Shown here: positions 19,129 to 34,963 of the stretch, piece after piece
Layout: every line of letters begins with the position of its first letter
Position numbering within the stretch: the first letter of the stretch is position 1
Assembly: GCA_028710155.1 (NCBI GenBank)
Contig: JAQUSR010000001.1
Span: forward strand, 1-47,710
From: Bacteroidales bacterium
Lineage (GTDB): Bacteria > Bacteroidota > Bacteroidia > Bacteroidales > WRLA01
DNA: 47,710 bases
Direction of reading: 5' to 3'
Notes under the pieces: model-generated
What the model was told of the DNA's origin: nothing
Seen by the model: the letters and a program-made list of their open reading frames with translations, nothing else
The model's database searches: none
Position numbers and translations under genes: made by a program

Positions 19129-20442
19129 TTATTGTTTCCAATATTTATCAGTAAACTCTTGTTTAATAGCTACTTCCGATTTATTGAAATATTTTCTGAA
19201 CAACTCCCAAGTTCTATCCAACATTTGATCTACTTTCAAATCTACATCAATGGCTAACAAATCGTTGGAATAGTCTTTGGCGAAGTCGAGCACACGACGG
19301 TCGTAGTCGGTCAAATCGAAACCGTTTTCCAATTTTGTACGAGCGTTGGCTGCATCGGCATACAGACGGATGGCTGCGTTCATCACTTGCGGATGGTCGG
19401 CACGCGTCTTTTTTCCGATGACTAACTGTTTCAAACGCGACAAACTTCTGAACGGGTCAACAATGACTTTGCCGATTTCGGTATCTTTACGTAAAAATAG
19501 CTGACCTTCAGTGATATAACCGGTGTTATCGGGGATAGCGTGGGTTATGTCGCCACCGGAAAGTGTGGTAACGGCAATGATGGTGATGGATCCGCCATTC
19601 GGGAACTGCACAGCTTTTTCGTAAATCTTTGCCAAATCGGAATATAGCGAGCCAGGCATAGAGTCTTTGGATGGAATTTGATCCATACGATTCGACACAA
19701 TACTCAGAGCATCAGCATATAAAGTCATGTCGGTTAACAATACCAACACCTTTTCGTTTTTGTCGACTGCAAAATATTCGGCAGCCGTCAAAGCCATATC
19801 GGGAACGAGCAAACGTTCTACCGGCGGTGCTTCGGTGGTATTGACAAATGAAATGATGTGATCCAAGATTCCGGCATTTTCGAACAAATTCTTGAAATAA
19901 AGATAGTCGTCGTTGGTTAATCCCATACCACCCAATATGATACGATCGGCTTGAGCTTTCAACGCCACGTTTGCCATCACTTGATTATAAGGTTGATCGG
20001 GATCGGCAAAGAAAGGAATCTTCTGACCGGAAACCAACGTGTTGTTTAAGTCGATGCCGGCTATACCGGTGGCAATCAGTTCGGAAGGTTGTTTACGTTG
20101 AACGGGGTTGACAGAAGGTCCGCCGATTTCGCGTTCTTCGCCGTCCACTTCCGGACCGCCGTCGATGGGCTGACCGAAAGCGTTGAAAAAACGTCCGCAC
20201 AACTCATCACTCACCTTTAGCGTAGGCGCTTTGCCCAAGAAGGTAACTTCGGCATTGGTGGGGATGCCTTCCGTGCCTGAAAAGACCTGCAACGTAATTT
20301 CGTCTCCCCAAATTTTGACCACTTGCGCCAAACGACCGTGAATATAAGCCAACTCATCAAAACCGATTCCCGTTGCCTTTAAACTACACGTAGCTTTGGT
20401 GATCTGGCTGATCTTTGTATAAACTTTTTGAAATGCACTCAT
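19129..20442 (-). CDS. ntpB: V-type ATPase subunit B
   Basis: 437 aa. Typical regulatory-subunit sequence (PSVNP..R, GITNDDY, ITEGQLFL). Confidence 0.95.
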   Translation of the reverse strand: MSAFQKVYTKISQITKATCSLKATGIGFDELAYIHGRLAQVVKIWGDEITLQVFSGTEGIPTNAEVTFLGKAPTLKVSDELCGRFFNAFGQPIDGGPEVDGEEREIGGPSVNPVQRKQPSELIATGIAGIDLNNTLVSGQKIPFFADPDQPYNQVMANVALKAQADRIILGGMGLTNDDYLYFKNLFENAGILDHIISFVNTTEAPPVERLLVPDMALTAAEYFAVDKNEKVLVLLTDMTLYADALSIVSNRMDQIPSKDSMPGSLYSDLAKIYEKAVQFPNGGSITIIAVTTLSGGDITHAIPDNTGYITEGQLFLRKDTEIGKVIVDPFRSLSRLKQLVIGKKTRADHPQVMNAAIRLYADAANARTKLENGFDLTDYDRRVLDFAKDYSNDLLAIDVDLKVDQMLDRTWELFRKYFNKSEVAIKQEFTDKYWKQ

Positions 20443-20462
20443 TATATGTAATTTTTTATTTC

Positions 20463-22226
20463 CTATTTTATCATTCTCTCTTCTAACATTGCTGCTGCTT
20501 CTTGCTCAAATTTCTTAAAGTCATCTGATTGATAAACCGTATAATTCATCTGTTTATAGGTGTTAATCAAGCGTTTGAAATAGGGTGCCACCTCTTCAAA
20601 ACTTTCAAAATTGAAAGAGGCACGAGTGATTTTCACCATCTTTTCCAACATATATTTTTGACGTTCCATGGAGGTAGAAGCATCCACTTTATCAAAAGCA
20701 TCTTGTTGCAAAATAATAAAATCGACTAACTCCGATTTCCACAGAATGATATGATAATCAATAGGAACGCTGTCGTCTCCTAAAATGTTAATCTGTTCTT
20801 GCGTCTCTTTTCCGCGAACCAACACGTTGCGGGCTTCGTTGACGATGTTCACCCAATTTTCGTCCAATTTTTCTTTGGCAAATTCGATAAATTCGGGATA
20901 TTCCAAATATTTGGAGTAAGAATCCAAGGTGTCGATAGCGGGATAGCGTTTCGAGTCGGCACGATTTTGCGACAACGCATAGAAACAGCGTGCCGCCTTT
21001 TTAGTAGATTCTGTAACCGGCTCTTTCAAGTTACCGCCGGCGGGCGAAACCGTACCGATAAAGGTAACGGATCCTGTTTTTCCGTTGTTCAGATAGACGA
21101 TGCCGGCACGGGCATAAAATCCGGAAATAATGGCGGATAAATCCATCGGGAAGGCATCTTGCCCCGGAAGTTCTTCCAAACGGTTCGACATTTCGCGCAA
21201 TGCTTGAGCCCAACGTGAAGTGGAGTCAGCCAATAAAAAGACTTTTAATCCCATTGCACGATAATATTCGCCGATGGTCATAGCTGTATAAACTGAGGCT
21301 TCGCGAGCTGCCACCGGCATATTGGAGGTGTTGGCAATGATTGTGGTTCGTTCATACAACTTGCGCCCTGTTCGAGGGTCGTCCAACATCGGAAATTCGG
21401 AGAAAATTTCAACCACTTCGTTGGCACGTTCGCCACAAGCTGCCATGATGATGATGTCGGCATCGGCATATTTTGCCAACGCGTGTTGCAAAACGGTTTT
21501 TCCTGTTCCAAACGGACCCGGAATAAATCCTGTGCCGCCTTCCAAAATGGGGTTCATCGAATCAATAACACGCACGCCGGTTTCCAATTGACGAAATGGA
21601 CGCGGTTTGTCTTTATAGGCTTTGATGGCGAGTTTCACGGGCCAATATTGCATCATGGTTACGGGATGTAATGTGCCGTTGTCGTCTTTCAACTCGGCAA
21701 TGGTATCCAAAATGGTGTAATCGCCTGCACCGACTATCTTTTCGATGGTAAAAACGCCTTCCATTTTAAAAGGAACCATGATTTTATGGTCGAGCCAATT
21801 TTCTTTCACATTGCCCAACCAATCGCCGGCCGTTACGCGATCGCCCGCTTTTGCCAAAGGTGTGAACGACCATTTTTTATTTTCTTCTAAAGCGTGAGTA
21901 TAGCCGCCACGTTTCAAAAAAACACCTTCCATCTTGTCAAGGTCGTTTTGCAAACCGTCGAAGTTTTTGGAGAGTAGTCCCGGGCCCAATTTCACCTCTA
22001 ACATGTGTCCTTCAAATTCCACTTTTGAGTTGGGTTTAAGTCCGCGTGTGCTTTCAAACACTTGAACGTAAGCAATTTCTCCAATTACTTTGATGACTTC
22101 TGCCATCAGCTTTTCGTCGTTTAAAAAAATGTAGCAAATCTCGTTTTGAAACACGGGGCCTTCTACATGCACTAAAACCAAGTTCGAGATAATGCTGACT
22201 ACTTTTCCGGTTGTTTTTTGATTCAT
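20463..22226 (-). CDS. ntpA: V-type ATPase catalytic subunit A
   Basis: 587 aa. Walker A GPFGTGKTV, the non-homologous insert typical of A subunits, and the LPG.DAFP motif. Confidence 0.95.
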   Translation of the reverse strand: MNQKTTGKVVSIISNLVLVHVEGPVFQNEICYIFLNDEKLMAEVIKVIGEIAYVQVFESTRGLKPNSKVEFEGHMLEVKLGPGLLSKNFDGLQNDLDKMEGVFLKRGGYTHALEENKKWSFTPLAKAGDRVTAGDWLGNVKENWLDHKIMVPFKMEGVFTIEKIVGAGDYTILDTIAELKDDNGTLHPVTMMQYWPVKLAIKAYKDKPRPFRQLETGVRVIDSMNPILEGGTGFIPGPFGTGKTVLQHALAKYADADIIIMAACGERANEVVEIFSEFPMLDDPRTGRKLYERTTIIANTSNMPVAAREASVYTAMTIGEYYRAMGLKVFLLADSTSRWAQALREMSNRLEELPGQDAFPMDLSAIISGFYARAGIVYLNNGKTGSVTFIGTVSPAGGNLKEPVTESTKKAARCFYALSQNRADSKRYPAIDTLDSYSKYLEYPEFIEFAKEKLDENWVNIVNEARNVLVRGKETQEQINILGDDSVPIDYHIILWKSELVDFIILQQDAFDKVDASTSMERQKYMLEKMVKITRASFNFESFEEVAPYFKRLINTYKQMNYTVYQSDDFKKFEQEAAAMLEERMIK

Positions 22227-30538: not shown

Positions 30539-30747
30539 ATGGAACAAGATAAAGCAATAAATATACATTTTCTGAGTACGAATCATTCCAATGTAAGTCC
30601 ATCGGCTGAAAAAAGGATATGATTTTTATGTCACAAAACAAAGATTTTAATGAGCCGGATTCGGTTGTGAATTTAGGTGTGGGCAAAAATATGGTTTCGT
30701 CTATTCGCTTTTGGATAAAAGCCTTTGGACATAGCAATAATAATTAA
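30539..30747 (+). pseudogene. Degraded, truncated 5' fragment of a DUF4007-like gene
   Basis: Pieces in three frames read MEQDKAINI / FSEYESFQCKS / RLKKGYDF / SQNKDFNEPDSVVNLGVGKNMVSSIRFWIKAFG, then a stop at 30745-30747. This matches my recollection of the DUF4007 N-terminus (FSGHESFxCR..WLKKGYDF....LGVGKNMVxSIRFWxKAFG). A full-length protein would be about 300 aa. Confidence 0.4.
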
Positions 30748-30759
30748 AACAATTATGAT

Positions 30760-31884
30760 ATGCCAATAAAAGATTTACACGCAAAACCATTTGACGATGG
30801 TACAATAACAAAGTTGGAAATTTTTGAAAATTATGCAAAAGAATGGATTCCGACCTTTGTTATGAGTGATTATTATAGAGAGGTTTGGATTTTTGATTTT
30901 TTTGCAGGCACAGGATACGATATTAAAGGTGTTGCAGGTAGTCCAATACGTATTTTGAAACAAATAAAAGGACAAGTCGGGAATATTTTCAAAACACAAA
31001 CGAAAGTAAATATTTGTTTTAATGAATTAGACAAAGATAAGTTTAATTCATTAAAACAATCTTGTATCGATTTTATTATTAATGATGCTGAATTAGAGCG
31101 GTTACAAAAAAACAATTTTTTGAAAATTAATTATAAAAATGAAGATGTGGCCAAATTATTTCCAATTTCATTACAAACTATAAAACAATATCCTTCATTA
31201 GTTTATTTAGACCAAAATGGAATTAAATTTTTGTCAAACTCATATTTTTTAGCACTTGCAGAAACGAAAGAAACTGATTTTCTCTATTTTCTATCTTCAT
31301 CATACATAAATCATTACGGAAAAACAGTAGCATTTAAATCCACCATAAATATTGATGTTGATAGGGCAAGGCAAAATCCATATAAATATTTTCACAGAAA
31401 TGTATTAGAACAAGTTAGAGAATGGTTGCCAAAAGATTCTAAATGTGTTTTGTACCCATTTACGATTAAAAAGGGAGCGAATATCTATGGAATAATTTTT
31501 GGTGCTTCTCACCCTCTTGCCGTAAATAAATTTCTTACAACTGCTTGGAATCAAAACTCAATTAATGGAGAGGCAAATTTTGATATTGATGATGACGAAC
31601 AAAAATTACAACCGTTATTATTCGAAGATATGAAATTGCTAACAAAGAAAGAAAGTTTTAAACAAAAACTGATAGAAAAAATTCTAAACGGCAATTTAAA
31701 AAACAACAAAGATGTTTTTGATTTTACTCTACAACAAGGACACATTGCAGAACATGCAGCAGAAGCTGTAAAAGAATTGAAAAAGAAAGGGAAAATACTA
31801 TATGATGAAAAATCTCCGTTAATTAATTATGATAATGTGTATAAAAAGAAAAAAATCATTGAATATAATGTGGTTATAAAATGA
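30760..31884 (+). CDS. tcmP: Three-Cys-motif partner protein TcmP-like (Rossmann/methyltransferase-fold)
   Basis: 374 aa. N-terminal H..K...KLEIFENYAKEW pattern. SAM-motif-I-like DFFAGTG (30895-30915). FNELDKDKFNSL and LVYLDQNG (D at 31210) segments. It sits immediately upstream of, and 4-nt overlapping, a DUF5131 gene, which is the defining context of TIGR04474 as I recall it. Confidence 0.7.
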   Translation: MPIKDLHAKPFDDGTITKLEIFENYAKEWIPTFVMSDYYREVWIFDFFAGTGYDIKGVAGSPIRILKQIKGQVGNIFKTQTKVNICFNELDKDKFNSLKQSCIDFIINDAELERLQKNNFLKINYKNEDVAKLFPISLQTIKQYPSLVYLDQNGIKFLSNSYFLALAETKETDFLYFLSSSYINHYGKTVAFKSTINIDVDRARQNPYKYFHRNVLEQVREWLPKDSKCVLYPFTIKKGANIYGIIFGASHPLAVNKFLTTAWNQNSINGEANFDIDDDEQKLQPLLFEDMKLLTKKESFKQKLIEKILNGNLKNNKDVFDFTLQQGHIAEHAAEAVKELKKKGKILYDEKSPLINYDNVYKKKKIIEYNVVIK

Positions 31885-32612
31885 AAACAACAAAAATAGA
31901 ATGGACAGATAAAACCTGGAATCCAGTTACAGGATGTTCAAAGATTTCAGCAGGTTGCGTAAATTGCTATGCAGAAGTTATGGCTCGCCGCCTTCAAGCC
32001 ATGAGACAAAGTAAGTATAAAAATGGATTTGGATTGACACTGCACGAAGATGTGTTATCAAAACCAGTACATTGGAAAACACCACATACAATTTTTGTAT
32101 GTTCAATGAGTGATTTATTTCATGAAGATGTTCCTTTTGATTTCATTGATAAAGTGATAAAAACTATAGAATTAACACCACAGCATAGGTATCAATTATT
32201 GACTAAGAGGGCAGAAAGAATGGCCGAGTATTTCCAAACCCGAAAAATTCCAAAAAATGTATGGTTGGGAGTTACAGTAGAAATACAAAAATCGAAAAAT
32301 AGAATTGATATTCTTAGGAAATTGGCGGCTCCTATACGGTTTTTATCTTGTGAGCCTTTATTAGAAAATTTAGACAAATTAGATTTGACAAATATCGATT
32401 GGGTTATAGTTGGAGGAGAGAGTGGTATCTCTGCCCGTCCAATGAAATCCGAATGGGCAATGTCTATTCAAGAACAAGCAGAAAAGCAAGGTTCTGCCTT
32501 TTTCTTCAAACAATGGGGCACTTGGGGAAGTGATGGAATAAAAAGAGATAAACACAAAAACGGTAAACTCTTAAACGGTAAAGTGTGTCAACAAATGCCA
32601 CAAAGAAATTAA
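31881..32612 (+). CDS. DUF5131 / phage Gp37-Gp68 family three-Cys-motif protein
   Basis: The N-terminus IEWTDKTWNPVTGCSKISAGCVNCYAE gives C19-x6-C26-x2-C29. Other family hallmarks: FVCSMSDLFHEDVP, QLLTKR, WLGVTVE, LSCEPLL, DWVIVGGESG..ARPM, FFFKQWG. Confidence 0.85.
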   Translation: MKTTKIEWTDKTWNPVTGCSKISAGCVNCYAEVMARRLQAMRQSKYKNGFGLTLHEDVLSKPVHWKTPHTIFVCSMSDLFHEDVPFDFIDKVIKTIELTPQHRYQLLTKRAERMAEYFQTRKIPKNVWLGVTVEIQKSKNRIDILRKLAAPIRFLSCEPLLENLDKLDLTNIDWVIVGGESGISARPMKSEWAMSIQEQAEKQGSAFFFKQWGTWGSDGIKRDKHKNGKLLNGKVCQQMPQRN

Positions 32613-32635: not shown

Positions 32636-33706
32636 ATGACTCTACCATCCGACAATAAATTAGACATTCGCCCGCTTTCGCAAATCTATAATAATACAGT
32701 TACAACTTACAAATATTATTGGTTTGTGTCTATTCTTGATATTGTGTCGAAAGAAGGGCGGCGGCGTATTTCGTTTTGGGAAATAATTGTCGGGATGGTA
32801 GCCGAAGCGTGGTATCCGATACATTATTTCCGTTTATCGTATGGAAAATCCGACTCTTTATACGAGCAAATTATTGAACTACAACACAAATTAAATATTC
32901 CTATTGATGCTCAAAAAACGGATATTAAAAAGAGGATAATAAACAATCTTGAAAATTCTCAAATCAAAAGTCTTTTGCGTGTTTTTATATTAAATGTTCC
33001 TTATCGTTTTTTATCGCCTTGGATTCATTTTACAACAAATGCAGATGTTTCCATTCAATCAAAAACGTTTGCAAATAACTGTCTGTATGCCATTGATGGA
33101 GAGTATATTGACGTGAATTCATCGTGGCAGCAATATTTAACAGATCATTACGCCATACTACGCGATTTTACCTTTTGGAACTTGACTATTTTTCTGCAAA
33201 AACGTAATCCAAATGTGCCAGATATTCCGTCAAAATTGATAAAACCAATTCAACGTAATTCTCTTACCAAACAACACCATTTTTGGGATGCTTATATTGA
33301 TATTGTTGGATCAATAAAATGTATATACACAGGGAAAACGTTGCATAAAAATGAGTACGACTTAGACCATTTTATTCCTTGGAGTTATGTCTGCCACAAT
33401 TTACTTTGGAATTTATTACCAGCCGATTCGAGTATAAATTCGTCAAAAAGTAATAATTTACCGTCATTGGATGACTATCTGCGCCCTTTTGCACAAATGC
33501 ACCATAATGCGCTGAAAGAACTTTATCCACGCAATCCGAGTAACAAACTTTTAGAAGATTATCTGGTCTTGGACGATTCTATTTCTGAATTAGTGGGCTA
33601 TTCCGATGAAGATTTTTTTCGCATATATCAAAAAACCTTTTCTCCAATGACGCAAATTGCCGCAAATATGGGTTTCTCATATTGGCAAAATCCGCTTGTA
33701 AAATGA
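32636..33706 (+). CDS. HNH endonuclease-domain protein with an unassigned ~230-aa N-terminal domain
   Basis: C-terminal HNH core YDLDHFIPWSYVCHNLLWNLLPADSSINSSKSNNLP (DH at 33365-33370). The N-terminal region contains YKYYWFVSILDIV. I used the ATG at 32636. The ORF-track GTG at 32585 would overlap the upstream gene by 28 nt. Confidence 0.8.
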   Translation: MTLPSDNKLDIRPLSQIYNNTVTTYKYYWFVSILDIVSKEGRRRISFWEIIVGMVAEAWYPIHYFRLSYGKSDSLYEQIIELQHKLNIPIDAQKTDIKKRIINNLENSQIKSLLRVFILNVPYRFLSPWIHFTTNADVSIQSKTFANNCLYAIDGEYIDVNSSWQQYLTDHYAILRDFTFWNLTIFLQKRNPNVPDIPSKLIKPIQRNSLTKQHHFWDAYIDIVGSIKCIYTGKTLHKNEYDLDHFIPWSYVCHNLLWNLLPADSSINSSKSNNLPSLDDYLRPFAQMHHNALKELYPRNPSNKLLEDYLVLDDSISELVGYSDEDFFRIYQKTFSPMTQIAANMGFSYWQNPLVK

Positions 33707-34557
33707 AGAAAATTAAAAATAATTCGCATTTGACAGCTATTGCGCGCGAATCATTATCATTTCCAACACGCTGGTTAAAAGGCAAAAATCTTTTGTGCAG
33801 CGAAATTTTGGATTTTGGATGTGGTTTTGGTTTTGATACAGACGAACTTCAAAATCAAGGTTATAATATTATCGGTTACGACAATTATTATCGCCCTGAT
33901 TATCCCGATAAACGATTTGATACAATAGTATGCAATTATGTACTAAACGTTTTAGAACCAGAAGAACAAGTAGAGGTTTTAATGTCTGTTTCAGAACTTT
34001 TGAAACCAACAGGAACGGCATATTTTGCTGTGCGGCGTGATTTGAAAACAGAGGGATTTCGCACGCATTACGTTCATAAACAACCAACTTACCAGTGCAA
34101 TGTGATTTTGCCTTACAAAAGTATCTTTCAAAATGAAAATTGTGAAATATACGAGTATCGGCATTACAATCAAATTGCGCACAACTCCGATTGTCCGTTC
34201 TGTAATTTGGCAAAAGACAAAGAACTGCTTTGCGAAACGGCTACTGCATTTGCTTTTTTCGATGGATTTCCCGTAAGTAAAGGTCATACGCTAATCGTTC
34301 CAAAACGTCACGTAGCAAGTTATTTCGACCTTTCTACACACGAGCAACGAGCCTTGTGGCTGTTGACAAATCGATGCAAAAAAATTCTTGAAAAACGTCA
34401 CAATCCGGACGGTTTCAACGTTGGCATAAACGTTGGCGAATCTGCAGGACAAAGCATTTTTCACGTCCATATTCATATCATTCCGCGCTACAAAGGCGAT
34501 GTTGCCAATCCGCGTGGTGGCGTGCGTTGCGTTATTCCAAATAAACAAAATTATTGA
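33703..34557 (+). CDS. Fusion protein: SAM-dependent methyltransferase (dnd-associated TIGR04096-like) plus HIT-family nucleotide hydrolase/transferase domain
   Basis: The N-terminal half has TAIARESLSFPTR, motif I ILDFGCGFGFD, GYDNYYRPDYP and VCNYVLNVLEPEEQ. The C-terminal half has CPFC, FPVSKGHTLIVPKRH, AGQSIFHVHIHIIPRYKGD (histidine triad at 34462-34476) and a PRGGVRCVIP tail. The ATG at 33703 overlaps the HNH stop (ATGA). Confidence 0.85.
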   Translation: MKKIKNNSHLTAIARESLSFPTRWLKGKNLLCSEILDFGCGFGFDTDELQNQGYNIIGYDNYYRPDYPDKRFDTIVCNYVLNVLEPEEQVEVLMSVSELLKPTGTAYFAVRRDLKTEGFRTHYVHKQPTYQCNVILPYKSIFQNENCEIYEYRHYNQIAHNSDCPFCNLAKDKELLCETATAFAFFDGFPVSKGHTLIVPKRHVASYFDLSTHEQRALWLLTNRCKKILEKRHNPDGFNVGINVGESAGQSIFHVHIHIIPRYKGDVANPRGGVRCVIPNKQNY

Positions 34558-34927: not shown

Positions 34928-34963
34928 AAAAATTCACGTTTTTTCTAAAAAACGTGAATTTTT
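34928..34963. repeat. Perfect 17-bp inverted repeat with a 2-nt spacer (terminator and/or operator candidate)
   Basis: aaaaattcacgtttttt-ct-aaaaaacgtgaattttt (34928-34944 / 34947-34963). It lies 370 nt after the cassette stop and ends 3 nt before a TAnnTTTG box. Confidence 0.7.

What the first reader, a model, noticed from the sequence alone, without database searches (positions are those of the whole stretch)
33703..34557. Single polypeptide fusing a dnd-associated-type methyltransferase to a histidine-triad (HIT) domain
Seen: one uninterrupted ORF carries both domains. The N-terminal ~165 aa have TAIARESLSFPTR, ILDFGCGFGFD and CNYVLNVLEPEEQVEVL. The C-terminal ~120 aa have a complete HIT core (GHTLIVPKRH, AGQSIFHVHIHIIPR) and a PRGGVRCVIP tail. 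Established: HIT enzymes form covalent nucleotidyl-histidine intermediates and hydrolyse or transfer NMP groups (Hint, Fhit, GalT, and aprataxin on 5'-adenylated DNA). The TIGR04096-like family is annotated only as a putative methyltransferase associated with DNA phosphorothioation loci. Inference: a covalent fusion implies coupled chemistry. One option is a nucleotide-linked or adenylated intermediate in a modification pathway. Another is removal of abortive adenylates, or nucleotide depletion or signalling during defence. I do not know of a described function for this architecture.
Basis: partly seen in the sequence, partly recalled or inferred. Interest (0 to 1): 0.68.

Follow-up and report, generated by a model that had tools for sequence, protein, structure and literature searches.

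The report
Methyltransferase–HIT partner of an HNH nuclease
The methyltransferase–HIT fusion is real and widespread, and it is the constant second gene of an undescribed two-gene cassette with an HNH DNA nuclease that sits in anti-phage defence islands, often inside DNA-phosphorothioation (ssp) loci.

Summary
The ORF at 33703-34557 is real: 284 aa, uninterrupted, with a class I SAM methyltransferase core followed by a complete HIT domain. It is not an assembly artefact. It belongs to a family of 3,152 protein clusters, and NCBI already names some members 'bifunctional class I SAM-dependent methyltransferase/HIT family protein'.

In every Bacteroidales locus examined, and in more divergent lineages, the fusion lies directly downstream of an HNH_4 endonuclease gene with overlapping ends (window 32636-33706). 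No other neighbour is conserved. The adjacent TcmP-DUF5131 pair is a separate module.

The HIT half belongs to a HIT clade that is repeatedly fused or adjacent to restriction nucleases. Partners include HNH proteins, SauUSI-like type IV enzymes, and the same reader domains that the fusion's HNH partners carry.

The methyltransferase core matches only the core of the phosphorothioation-associated TIGR04096 family. It lacks DNA-methyltransferase motifs.

Thirteen of 44 Bacteroidales loci carry ssp genes or fragments, and the window keeps a dead sspB remnant.

The best reading is an undescribed nuclease-centred defence cassette, with the MTase-HIT protein as obligatory partner doing phosphate-linked (adenylyl or thio-phosphate) chemistry. 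The exact chemistry is inferred, not shown.

The parts
33703..34557 (+). MTase-HIT fusion gene (284 aa), the finding itself and second gene of the cassette
   Evidence: ORF and sequence. Pfam Methyltransf_23 plus HIT. Family of 3,152 clusters.
33724..34167 (+). Class I SAM methyltransferase core (aa 8-155). Motif I ILDFGCGFGFD lies at 33805-33837. It includes the HxTAIxRxxLSxP N-terminal motif shared with TIGR04096 proteins.
   Evidence: Invariant D37, G39, G41, G43, D60, V80, N82. 36% identity to aa 192-321 of an ssp-linked TIGR04096-type protein, E 4e-16. Nearest solved relatives are small-molecule MTases such as TehB and UbiG.
34159..34191 (+). Inter-domain linker (aa 153-163), the only length-variable segment in the family
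   Evidence: Alignment A2 shows indels of 0-12 residues here.
34192..34494 (+). HIT domain (aa 164-264). The histidine triad HVHIHII lies at 34462-34482.
   Evidence: Pfam HIT E 1.1e-23. PDB sequence matches to Hint, Fhit and Ap4A phosphorylase. Foldseek rmsd 1.3-2.8 A to Fhit, bacterial HIT proteins and Rv2613c. H195, H254, H256 and H258 are invariant.
34495..34554 (+). Clade-specific C-terminal tail (aa 265-284, GDVxNPxGGVRxVIPxKQxY)
   Evidence: G272, G273, V274 and R275 are invariant. The tail is also present in stand-alone and nuclease-fused members of the clade. It has low pLDDT in the monomer model.
32636..33706 (+). HNH endonuclease partner gene (356 aa from ATG 32636; a longer GTG start at 32585 is possible). 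Its TGA stop overlaps the fusion's ATG (ATGA).
   Evidence: Pfam HNH_4 E 1.2e-11. Family of 2,302 clusters with a 356-aa called product. Immediately upstream of the fusion in 43 Bacteroidales loci, in 4 of 4 reverse look-ups and in divergent lineages.
32666..33241 (+). N-terminal all-alpha domain of the nuclease (aa 11-202; motifs TYKYYWF and NVPYRFLSPWI), an unannotated putative DNA or modification reader
   Evidence: No Pfam hit. No PDB sequence or fold match. AF2 pLDDT mostly above 85. Homologous to the N-domains of P0165 and P0149, where HIT replaces HNH (E 9e-46 and 1e-27).
33308..33460 (+). Cas9-type HNH catalytic domain (aa 225-275; YDLDHFIPW...WNLLP...INSSKSNN)
   Evidence: Pfam HNH_4 and weak NCBIfam Cas9 HNH hits. 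D242, D244, H245, N259, N268 and K271 are invariant.
30760..32612 (+). Neighbouring but separate module: TcmP (30760-31884) plus DUF5131/Gp37-Gp68 (31881-32612), PADLOC candidate system PDC-M30. Apparently co-transcribed with the cassette in this window.
   Evidence: Found with the cassette only in the window and L007.
30562..30729 (+). Degraded sspB remnant (codons ~15-70, with an in-frame stop) at the upstream edge of the island
   Evidence: tblastn with SspB from L041: 63% identity over 56 aa, E 9e-18. No sspC or sspD in the window.

Best explanation
The ORF is the second gene of a mobile two-gene, nuclease-centred defence (restriction-type) cassette. Gene 1 encodes the DNA-cutting effector: an unannotated N-terminal reader domain followed by a Cas9-type HNH domain. 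Gene 2, the finding, encodes its obligatory partner. It joins a SAM-dependent methyltransferase core of the phosphorothioation-associated (TIGR04096) type to a catalytically intact Fhit/Hint-type HIT domain. That HIT domain belongs to a clade specialised as an accessory of restriction nucleases.

Shown: the gene pairing, the translational-coupling geometry, intact catalytic residues in all three enzymatic domains, the defence-island and ssp context, and the recurrent HIT-nuclease fusions.

Inferred: the two proteins act together on DNA. The HIT histidine (H256) attacks a phosphorus that carries a good leaving group on or next to the nuclease's DNA substrate. The methyltransferase acts on the same site.

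My most likely concrete version (about 0.3 on its own) is phosphorothioate-linked backbone chemistry. In this version the pair handles thio-phosphate or adenylyl-phosphate species that arise in Ssp/Dnd-type modification. Either this spares self DNA or it makes PT-bearing or PT-lacking DNA a substrate for the HNH nuclease.
For: Pairing:
- The HNH_4 gene is immediately upstream with a 3-4 nt junction in 43 Bacteroidales genome loci plus the window.
- The reverse test from HNH homologs gave 4 of 4 places.
- Divergent fusions (41-56% identity) also have an upstream HNH_4 gene, 4 of 4.
- No other neighbour recurs in more than 6 loci.

Defence context:
- Flanks include Wadjet-like JetABCD genes (by sequence features; MksE and DUF3584 Pfam hits).
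- They also include PDC-M31 and PDC-M30 candidate systems and SspB/C/D plus PbeA/C.
- The island has lower GC (0.27-0.35) than its flanks (0.36-0.45).

HIT clade and nucleases:
- Among the 150 closest representatives, 23 are HIT fused to PLD-helicase. One of these, P0258, matches PADLOC 'type IV methyl-directed restriction enzyme' at 1e-110 and Pfam PLDc_2, ResIII, Helicase_C and DUF3427.
- Five belong to the P0217-type group; P0217 itself is reader-HNH-HIT by Pfam.
- One is HIT-x-HNH.
- Five carry the same N-domains as the fusion's HNH partners, with HIT in place of HNH.
- A Polaromonas plasmid has a stand-alone HIT directly upstream of an HNH gene.

PT link:
- The MT core matches TIGR04096 (E 1.5e-17).
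- It also aligns to a 675-aa member that sits beside sspABCD.
- ssp genes or fragments lie within 8 kb in 13 of 44 loci. With genome-level dnd/ssp prevalence of 6.3% in gut genomes (abstract of bioRxiv 10.1101/2024.06.03.597175, listed), the conservative binomial P is 2e-6.
- The window holds an sspB remnant.
- The fusion is directly followed by sspD in 4 loci.
- Phage phiSASD1 has a PAPS-reductase-like gene followed by a HIT of this clade.
- The nuclease classes fused to this HIT are those reported next to dnd modification genes (PMC10853773).
- Hint-type HIT enzymes cleave P-S, P-N and mixed-anhydride bonds (PMC8775712).

Catalytic integrity.
Against: - No experiment exists. Defence function is inferred only from context.
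- 31 of 44 loci show no ssp genes within 8 kb.
- Only one ssp-linked locus (L037) has sspC and sspD both intact. Most show the cassette replacing ssp genes, and the window has only a dead sspB fragment. The association could therefore reflect turnover at a recombination hot spot rather than cooperation.
- Loci are not phylogenetically independent, so the enrichment P-value is optimistic.
- The two N-domain-HIT proteins examined lie beside C5-cytosine R-M systems, not PT genes.
- Two cyanobacterial fusions have no nuclease partner within 8 kb.
- HIT active sites normally take a terminal nucleoside 5'-phosphate derivative. Action on DNA is known only for aprataxin-type enzymes.
- The closest stand-alone relatives in genomes sit in a housekeeping APS-reductase locus.
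Confidence: 0.55

Rival explanations
1. Classical restriction-modification logic. The small methyltransferase methylates host DNA bases, with sequence recognition supplied in trans by the N-terminal domain of the HNH subunit, as in type I/III systems. The HNH domain cuts unmethylated DNA, and HIT is an auxiliary domain.
For: The nuclease was never found without the MTase-HIT gene, whereas orphan MTase-HIT genes exist. This is the asymmetry typical of R-M systems. The overlapping genes suggest a stoichiometric complex. The MTase has no target-recognition domain of its own, so one would have to come from the partner.
Against: The MTase lacks the (D/N/S)PP(Y/F/W) or PC catalytic motifs of DNA amino- and C5-methyltransferases; the motif IV region reads CNYVLNV. 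Its nearest relatives are small-molecule MTases and TIGR04096, not DNA MTases. Related HNH-HIT systems lack any MTase, so the conserved partner function lies in HIT.
Confidence: 0.15
2. Nucleotide-pool or signal role. The HIT domain degrades or makes a free nucleotide, such as Ap4A, APS, an NAD-derived signal, an NDP-sugar used for phage DNA hypermodification, or dNMPS released from PT-DNA. The MTase modifies the product or a by-product. The nuclease acts in parallel or is regulated by that molecule.
For: The HIT half is 52-56% identical to stand-alone HITs that sit in a housekeeping APS-reductase locus. It is closest in sequence and structure to Hint, Fhit and Ap4A phosphorylase. PADLOC lists a HIT protein (ThsC) as an accessory of a signalling system, Thoeris (PMC8565338). 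HINT1 converts dNMPS to dNMP plus H2S. The MTase's nearest solved relatives include TehB-type MTases, which from background knowledge methylate chalcogen compounds.
Against: The repeated covalent fusion of this HIT clade to DNA-reader domains alone (N-domain-HIT proteins) argues that its substrate is at the DNA, not free in the pool. No cyclase, TIR or other signal-generating gene is conserved nearby.
Confidence: 0.15
3. Anti-repair co-effector. The HIT works like aprataxin in reverse context, removing AMP from 5'-adenylated nicks or from ligase-AMP so that HNH-made breaks cannot be resealed. The MTase caps the exposed phosphate.
For: Reader-domain-plus-HIT architectures parallel aprataxin's HIT plus DNA-binding zinc finger (the aprataxin architecture is from background knowledge). 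The HIT is fused in cis to nucleases that need no self-protection, namely type IV enzymes.
Against: There is no association with ligase genes and no zinc finger. No evidence exists for phosphate methylation by this MTase family. This reading is purely analogical.
Confidence: 0.1
4. Not a defence system. It is a selfish HNH homing-type element carrying a metabolic cargo gene, or a housekeeping small-molecule enzyme that merely neighbours a nuclease.
For: The cassette appears in many unrelated chromosomal contexts, sometimes as an isolated two-gene insert between housekeeping genes. It often interrupts ssp genes.
Against: There is no conserved insertion site or boundary sequence. Breakpoints in sspB and sspC vary. 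Strong purifying selection acts on all catalytic residues of both proteins. The HIT clade is fused to bona fide restriction-enzyme architectures.
Confidence: 0.05

Closest known systems
TIGR04096 'DNA phosphorothioation-associated putative methyltransferase' (uncharacterised)
   Same: Shares the ~130-residue core: the HxTAIxRxxLSxP motif, SAM motif I, and the GYDxxYxP and VLNV(L/I)E stretches. It is 36% identical to aa 192-321 of a member encoded beside sspABCD. Both are linked to ssp loci.
   Different: TIGR04096 proteins are 478-675 aa, with large N- and C-terminal regions that are absent here and no HIT domain. The window protein scores 63.5 bits against the family cut-off of 150.
Aprataxin (eukaryotic HIT enzyme that removes 5'-AMP from DNA)
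   Same: A Hint/Fhit-type HIT domain working with a DNA-binding module. The clade here is fused to, or paired with, putative DNA-reader domains and nucleases.
   Different: No C2H2 zinc finger or FHA domain. Sequence similarity is generic HIT only. The partner here is a nuclease, not a repair complex. Activity on DNA is untested.
SauUSI-type type IV restriction enzymes (PLD nuclease - SF2 helicase - DUF3427 reader)
   Same: 23 of the 150 closest HIT representatives are this architecture with the HIT domain added at the N-terminus. One cassette (L091/L093) has such an enzyme as its next gene.
   Different: The window cassette uses an HNH nuclease with a different, unannotated reader domain, and it carries the HIT on a separate MTase-fused polypeptide.
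ScoMcrA/SprMcrA-type HNH enzymes and the wHTH+SRA+HNH nucleases of dnd neighbourhoods
   Same: A reader domain plus an HNH domain, found next to PT-modification genes (PMC10853773).
   Different: No detectable sequence or fold similarity of the N-domain to any solved structure, so none to the sulfur-binding domain either. There is no SRA domain. It is paired with the MTase-HIT protein.
ThsC, the HIT accessory of PADLOC 'Thoeris type II'
   Same: The only defence-linked HIT in the searchable literature. The HIT half hits its model at E 9.6e-13 (PMC8565338). It is also uncharacterised.
   Different: No ThsA or ThsB nearby. The partner here is a nuclease, and a methyltransferase is fused.
NitFhit and other HIT 'Rosetta-stone' fusions
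   Same: A HIT domain covalently fused to a second enzyme, implying a shared pathway. 1ems is the top Foldseek hit through its Fhit half.
   Different: The partner enzyme there is a nitrilase, not a methyltransferase. It is eukaryotic and has no nuclease context.

Membership tests
HIT superfamily (Pfam PF01230), Hint/Fhit branch | HxHxHxx histidine triad with the preceding conserved His, and a score above the gathering threshold | tested here: met
   HVHIHII at aa 254-260 and GHTL H195, invariant in 35 homologs. 84.1 bits against a cut-off of 21.5.
HIT superfamily (Pfam PF01230), Hint/Fhit branch | HIT alpha+beta fold | tested here: met
   The AF2 model (pLDDT ~85-96 over most of the domain core) superposes on Fhit, bacterial HIT proteins and Rv2613c at rmsd 1.3-2.8 A, probability 1.00.
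HIT superfamily (Pfam PF01230), Hint/Fhit branch | Nucleotidyl hydrolase or transferase activity through a covalent His-NMP intermediate | not testable with these tools
   Needs an enzyme assay.
Class I SAM-dependent methyltransferases | Motif I (E/D)xGxGxG, an acidic residue after strand 2, a Rossmann-like fold, and a Pfam hit above threshold | tested here: met
   LDFGCGFG with invariant D37, G39, G41 and G43. D60 is invariant. Methyltransf_23 scores 39.6 bits against a cut-off of 27. The AF2 model has alternating strand and helix.
TIGR04096 dnd-associated putative methyltransferase | Full-length match at or above the curated cut-off (150 bits over a 478-position model) | tested here: not met
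   63.5 bits, covering model positions 4-95 only. Pairwise homology to a bona fide member is limited to its aa 192-321.
TIGR04096 dnd-associated putative methyltransferase | Location next to dnd/ssp phosphorothioation genes | tested here: inconclusive
   ssp genes or fragments occur in 13 of 44 loci, and the window has an sspB remnant. Most loci lack them, and most ssp modules next to the cassette are incomplete.
DNA methyltransferases of R-M systems (N6A/N4C/C5) | Catalytic motif IV, (D/N/S)PP(Y/F/W) or PC(Q), and a target-recognition domain | tested here: not met
   The motif IV region is CNYVLNV. There is no TRD in a 155-aa domain. No DNA MTase appears among the Pfam, NCBIfam or PDB-profile hits.
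Aprataxin family | HIT domain followed by a C2H2 zinc finger that binds DNA | tested here: not met
   The C-terminal tail is a 20-residue Gly/Arg-rich motif without Cys or His ligands. There is no aprataxin-specific hit.
Thoeris type II (ThsA, ThsB, ThsC) | A HIT protein encoded with ThsA and ThsB | tested here: not met
   The HIT half hits the ThsC model, but no ThsA or ThsB genes occur in the window or in 45 related loci.
Type IV (modification-dependent) restriction enzymes | A nuclease domain joined to a modified-DNA reader domain, with no cognate DNA methyltransferase | tested here: inconclusive
   The HNH domain is intact. The N-domain is unannotated with no structural match, so a reader function is inferred only from its swap between HNH and HIT proteins. 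Relatives of the HIT are fused to bona fide type IV architectures.
Ssp phosphorothioation system (SspABCD plus SspE, SspFGH or PbeABCD) | Co-encoded with intact sspBCD and acting as its restriction partner | tested here: not met
   The window has only an sspB fragment with an in-frame stop, and no sspC or sspD. Of 13 ssp-linked loci, only L037 has sspC and sspD both intact beside the cassette (its sspB is cut by the contig end).

The most novel reading that the evidence does not exclude
The MTase-HIT protein performs enzymatic chemistry on the DNA phosphate backbone itself. It S-methylates a phosphorothioate sulfur using SAM, which turns the sulfur into a good leaving group. The HIT histidine then attacks that phosphorus. 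The outcome is either erasure of the PT mark (restoring a normal phosphodiester and releasing methanethiol) or strand breakage at PT sites, in concert with the HNH nuclease. This would be the first PT 'eraser' or PT-directed backbone-cleaving enzyme, and the first HIT enzyme acting on an internal DNA linkage.
Probability: 0.12. Interest if true: 0.9.

Novelty: new variant of a known kind. Interest (0 to 1): 0.66.

Why it matters
The HNH + MTase-HIT cassette would be a previously unnamed, abundant defence module of gut and rumen Bacteroidales; the two protein families comprise 3,152 and 2,302 clusters. It would also show that a dedicated clade of HIT nucleotide hydrolases is a recurrent accessory of restriction nucleases, including SauUSI-like type IV enzymes. 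No role for HIT chemistry in restriction has been described. This gives a concrete, testable handle on two open questions. One is what the uncharacterised 'dnd-associated methyltransferase' core does. The other is whether adenylyl- or thio-phosphate intermediates at DNA are processed enzymatically in phosphorothioation-linked immunity.

Tried and rejected
1. TcmP-DUF5131 as part of the same system. Rejected: it accompanies the cassette only in the window and L007 and matches a separate PADLOC candidate system, PDC-M30.
2. Identifying the nuclease's N-domain. PDB sequence search, Foldseek on the AF2 model and a profile search all gave nothing significant.
3. Substrate class of the MTase from solved relatives. 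The matches cover essentially only the SAM-binding region, to TehB, UbiG and other small-molecule MTases. Foldseek hits of the whole model were dominated by the HIT half.
4. Discrete mobile-cassette boundaries. There is no conserved sequence upstream of HNH or downstream of the fusion; similarity tracks the neighbouring genes.
5. General adjacency to SauUSI-like enzymes. Found in only one distinct element, L091/L093.
6. Parallel between the L044 radical-SAM plus 442-aa pair and the window's DUF5131/TcmP pair. Only weak similarity (E 7e-4 and not significant).
7. Contexts of P0142, P0155 and P0268. The contigs were too short to be informative.
8. Phage and plasmid collections. No full-length fusion was found, only separate HIT or MT-core hits.
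9. Literature. No paper combines 'histidine triad' with DUF3427 or 'HIT domain', 'restriction endonuclease' and HNH. For 'HIT family', methyltransferase and 'defense island', only the PADLOC paper appears. The 2024 Dnd reappraisal paper does not discuss HIT or this MTase.
10. Artefact (frameshift or chimera). Rejected on the basis of thousands of full-length homologs.
Full report
OBSERVATION

The ORF is exactly as described. Pfam places a class I SAM methyltransferase domain at aa 33-111 (Methyltransf_23, E 5.5e-10) and a HIT domain at aa 171-264 (E 1.1e-23). Both are above their gathering thresholds.

The 'dnd-associated' label needs qualifying. The NCBIfam model TIGR04096 matches only through its positions 4-95 of 478, scoring 63.5 bits against a cut-off of 150.

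The fusion is not an artefact. A search of 5.8 billion proteins found 3,152 clusters at E <= 1e-5. The best 120 are all full length at 73-85% identity and come mostly from Bacteroidales, Paludibacteraceae, Prevotellaceae and Tenuifilaceae metagenome bins. NCBI names one of them 'bifunctional class I SAM-dependent methyltransferase/HIT family protein'.

In a 35-sequence alignment the following residues are invariant:
- SAM motif I: D37, G39, G41, G43.
- D60, plus Y79, V80 and N82 (N78 is at least 90% conserved).
- HIT residues H195, H254, H256 and H258.
- A clade-specific tail: G272, G273, V274, R275.

Only the linker (aa 153-163) varies in length.

THE REAL UNIT IS A TWO-GENE CASSETTE

The ATG of the fusion overlaps the TGA of the upstream ORF (ATGA). 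That ORF (32636-33706; the database product is 356 aa) has an HNH_4 domain (E 1.2e-11). Its closest named relatives are the Cas9 HNH domain, and D242, D244, H245, N259, N268 and K271 are invariant.

A scan of one genome per GTDB species returned 47 loci with the fusion. tblastn and all-against-all ORF clustering gave these results:
- The HNH gene is immediately upstream in 43 Bacteroidales loci, at 57-72% identity with a 3-4 nt junction.
- No other gene family recurs in more than 6 loci.

The pairing holds under three further tests:
- **Reverse test.** Starting from HNH homologs on long contigs, 4 of 4 places have the fusion gene overlapping downstream.
- **Divergent fusions.** Four fusions at 41-56% identity to the window protein also have an HNH_4-type gene directly upstream. 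One of them sits as an isolated two-gene insert between housekeeping genes.
- **A different nuclease.** A Sphingobacteriales locus has an HNH_2 nuclease in the same overlapping position, followed by a Schlafen-type helicase.

Only two cyanobacterial loci lack any nuclease within 8 kb.

The TcmP (30760-31884) and DUF5131 (31881-32612) genes upstream in the window form a separate module, the PADLOC candidate PDC-M30. It accompanies the cassette in only one other locus, L007.

CONTEXT

The flanks are variable and typical of defence islands:
- Wadjet-like JetABCD genes, judged by sequence features and by MksE and DUF3584 Pfam hits.
- AAA-ATPase plus RloB-like pairs and the PDC-M31 candidate system.
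- Fic proteins, DUF1016-type nucleases and large helicase-nucleases.
- SspB, SspC and SspD with PbeA and PbeC.

The window island (about 30.4-34.0 kb) has GC 0.27-0.35 against 0.36-0.45 in the flanks. It is bounded by a peptidase gene and the oxaloacetate decarboxylase operon.

Thirteen of 44 Bacteroidales loci carry ssp genes or fragments within 8 kb. The window itself keeps an sspB remnant at 30562-30729 (63% identity over 56 codons, in-frame stop, E 9e-18) but has no sspC or sspD. Genome-level dnd/ssp prevalence in gut genomes is 6.3% (abstract of bioRxiv 10.1101/2024.06.03.597175, listed). Against that figure, 13 of 44 is strongly enriched (binomial P 2e-6). The loci are not independent, so the P-value is optimistic.

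Only L037 has sspC and sspD both intact beside the cassette. In most ssp-linked loci the cassette sits where ssp genes are missing:
- In L011, L026, L029 and L039, a truncated sspB 5' end abuts the HNH gene.
- In L041, an sspC stub of 74 codons precedes the HNH gene, and sspD follows the fusion.

I found no conserved cassette boundary. The ssp link is real as a location. It could mean functional partnership, antagonism, or turnover at a hot spot.

THE HIT HALF BELONGS TO A NUCLEASE-ASSOCIATED HIT CLADE

An exhaustive search of 1.84 billion representatives found relatives of aa ~161-284, tail included, at 46-58% identity in many architectures. My census of the best 150 gave:

| Architecture | Representatives |
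|---|---|
| HIT alone | 52 |
| MT+HIT | 25 |
| HIT fused to a PLD-helicase module | 23 |
| P0217-type group (reader and HNH N-terminal to HIT) | 5 |
| HIT with the N-domain type of the L045 nuclease | 3 |
| HIT with the N-domain type of the window nuclease | 2 |
| HIT-x-HNH | 1 |

Several checks support these assignments:
- P0258 is HIT + PLDc_2 + ResIII + Helicase_C + DUF3427. It matches PADLOC 'type IV methyl-directed restriction enzyme' at 1e-110. This is the SauUSI architecture (PMC6765204) with a HIT added at the N-terminus.
- P0217 is HNH_5 + HIT, and P0268 is HIT + HNH_4.
- Residues 11-202 of the window's HNH partner are homologous to the N-terminal domains of P0165 (40% identity, E 9e-46) and P0149 (E 1e-27), where HIT stands in the place of HNH.
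- The L045 partner's N-domain likewise matches P0155 (E 2e-14).
- P0165 and P0149 are both encoded beside C5 DNA methylase restriction loci.
- On a Polaromonas plasmid, a stand-alone HIT of the clade lies immediately upstream of an HNH endonuclease. That HNH domain is homologous to ours (36% identity over 72 residues, E 4e-9), and its N-terminus carries a similar short 'TATYKF' motif, although that stretch does not align significantly.

The broad evolutionary coupling is therefore HIT with nuclease. The methyltransferase is a lineage-specific addition.

The clade also has housekeeping members. All 31 stand-alone proteobacterial HITs recovered (52-56% identity) are syntenic with APS reductase subunit A, SlyD-like and TPR genes.

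By sequence and predicted structure the HIT is an ordinary Hint/Fhit/Ap4A-phosphorylase-type enzyme.

THE METHYLTRANSFERASE HALF

It aligns to aa 192-321 of a 675-aa 'DNA phosphorothioation-associated putative methyltransferase' (36% identity, E 4e-16). That protein is encoded directly beside sspA and opposite sspB-sspC-sspD on a Rhodobacteraceae plasmid, the place where Ssp systems usually carry their restriction gene.

It lacks the DPPY-type or PC motifs and any target-recognition domain of DNA methyltransferases. Its nearest solved relatives are small-molecule enzymes such as TehB and UbiG, and the matches cover essentially only the SAM-binding part.

THE NUCLEASE'S N-DOMAIN

This domain is confidently predicted as an all-alpha fold. 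It has no Pfam, PDB-sequence or Foldseek match. A reader role is inferred only from its position and from its exchange between HNH and HIT effectors.

MECHANISM

What is shown:
- An obligatory, translationally coupled gene pair.
- Three catalytically intact domains.
- Defence-island and ssp-locus location.
- Recurrent HIT-nuclease fusion.

What follows from established knowledge: HIT enzymes attack a nucleotide alpha-phosphorus through a histidine and expel good leaving groups. Hint-type enzymes cleave P-N, mixed-anhydride, P-F and P-S bonds and convert (d)NMPS to (d)NMP plus H2S (PMC8775712).

What I infer: the HNH protein is the DNA-cutting effector, and MTase-HIT is its partner working on a phosphate-linked adduct at or near the DNA.

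The most specific version I favour, at about 0.3, is phosphorothioate-linked chemistry. Its support:
- The TIGR04096-type core.
- The ssp enrichment.
- The direct fusion-sspD adjacency in four loci.
- The PAPS-reductase-like gene followed by a HIT gene in phage phiSASD1.
- The HIT's fusion partners (PLD-SF2 helicase, reader-HNH) are the nuclease classes reported next to dnd modification genes (PMC10853773).

Against it:
- Most loci lack ssp genes, and most neighbouring ssp modules are broken.
- The N-domain-HIT proteins examined sit next to 5mC systems.

The rivals are an R-M-like methylation of self DNA, a free-nucleotide or signal role, an aprataxin-like anti-repair role, and a non-defence selfish element. 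Each is set out in its own entry with the result that would refute it.

COMPARISON AND NOVELTY

PADLOC v2 has no model for either protein of the pair beyond generic HNH hits and the ThsC HIT hit. The searchable literature gives no description of a MTase-HIT protein or of HIT domains in restriction enzymes. The only defence-linked HIT there is the uncharacterised ThsC. Subscription-only literature and newer defence catalogues could not be checked.

I classify the finding as a new variant of a known kind: a nuclease-based defence cassette with an undescribed MTase-HIT accessory. It is not categorically new, because no new chemistry has been demonstrated.

Noticed in passing
window 30562-30729 (+): Degraded sspB remnant (codons ~15-70, 63% identical to an intact SspB, with an in-frame stop) just upstream of the TcmP gene. 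No sspC or sspD is present in the window. The island appears to have overwritten an Ssp phosphorothioation locus.
   Followed up: yes
window 30760-32612 (+): A TcmP (three-Cys-motif partner, with a C-terminal GMT-like wHTH) plus DUF5131/Gp37-Gp68 pair. It matches the PADLOC candidate system PDC-M30 very strongly (1.5e-138 and 6e-117). It has the lowest GC in the region (0.27-0.30), overlapping genes, and no published function that I could find.
   Followed up: partly
L048-L078 (31 proteobacterial loci): Stand-alone ~138-aa HIT proteins, 52-56% identical to the HIT half including its tail. All lie in a conserved block of APS reductase subunit A, a small ORF, a SlyD-like protein, a TPR protein, then HIT, in sulfur- and iron-oxidising Gammaproteobacteria and Gallionellaceae. 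This suggests an APS-related housekeeping role for the ancestral clade.
   Followed up: partly
L087 (Streptomyces phage phiSASD1, record 20337-21664): A phage PAPS-reductase-like (PP-loop) gene, gp3, is followed 44 nt later by a HIT gene of this clade, gp4 (44% identity over aa 161-284). This may be a phage DNA-modification or counter-defence pair.
   Followed up: no
L089 (Polaromonas naphthalenivorans plasmid pPNAP03, record 46954-48421): A stand-alone HIT is immediately followed by a 340-aa HNH endonuclease whose HNH domain is related to the window's (E 4e-9) and whose N-terminus shows a similar 'TATYKF' motif. This is the HIT-HNH pairing without a methyltransferase, in a cultured organism suitable for experiments.
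   Followed up: partly
L088 (Rhodobacteraceae plasmid pSC52_2, record 336912-345395): A canonical sspD-sspC-sspB / sspA cluster whose adjacent gene is a 675-aa TIGR04096-type protein. It sits in the position usually held by the Ssp restriction component. Its N-terminal ~190 aa and C-terminal ~350 aa have no Pfam or PADLOC match.
   Followed up: partly
L079 and L081: N-domain-HIT proteins (P0165, P0149) sit beside C5 DNA methylase loci. One locus also has HATPase_c_3, Z1 and DUF4420 genes. The other has an NgoPII-type restriction enzyme.
   Followed up: no
L028: A 5.6-kb contig carrying the Bacteroidales-type cassette (74% identity) is binned in a Methanobrevibacter MAG. This is most likely binning contamination rather than an archaeal occurrence.
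   Followed up: no
window 34928-34963 (+): A 16-bp inverted repeat with a 4-nt loop (AAAAATTCACGTTTTT TCTA AAAAACGTGAATTTTT), found by the terminator scan. It lies in the 620-nt gene-poor gap between the fusion gene and the convergent oxaloacetate decarboxylase operon. It may be a bidirectional terminator or an island boundary.
   Followed up: no
L044 5680-7915 (Calothrix): The orphan cyanobacterial fusion is preceded by a radical-SAM protein with weak DUF5131-like similarity (E 7e-4 to the window's DUF5131) and a 442-aa weakly methyltransferase-like protein. The resemblance to the window's TcmP-DUF5131 pair is too weak to call.
   Followed up: yes
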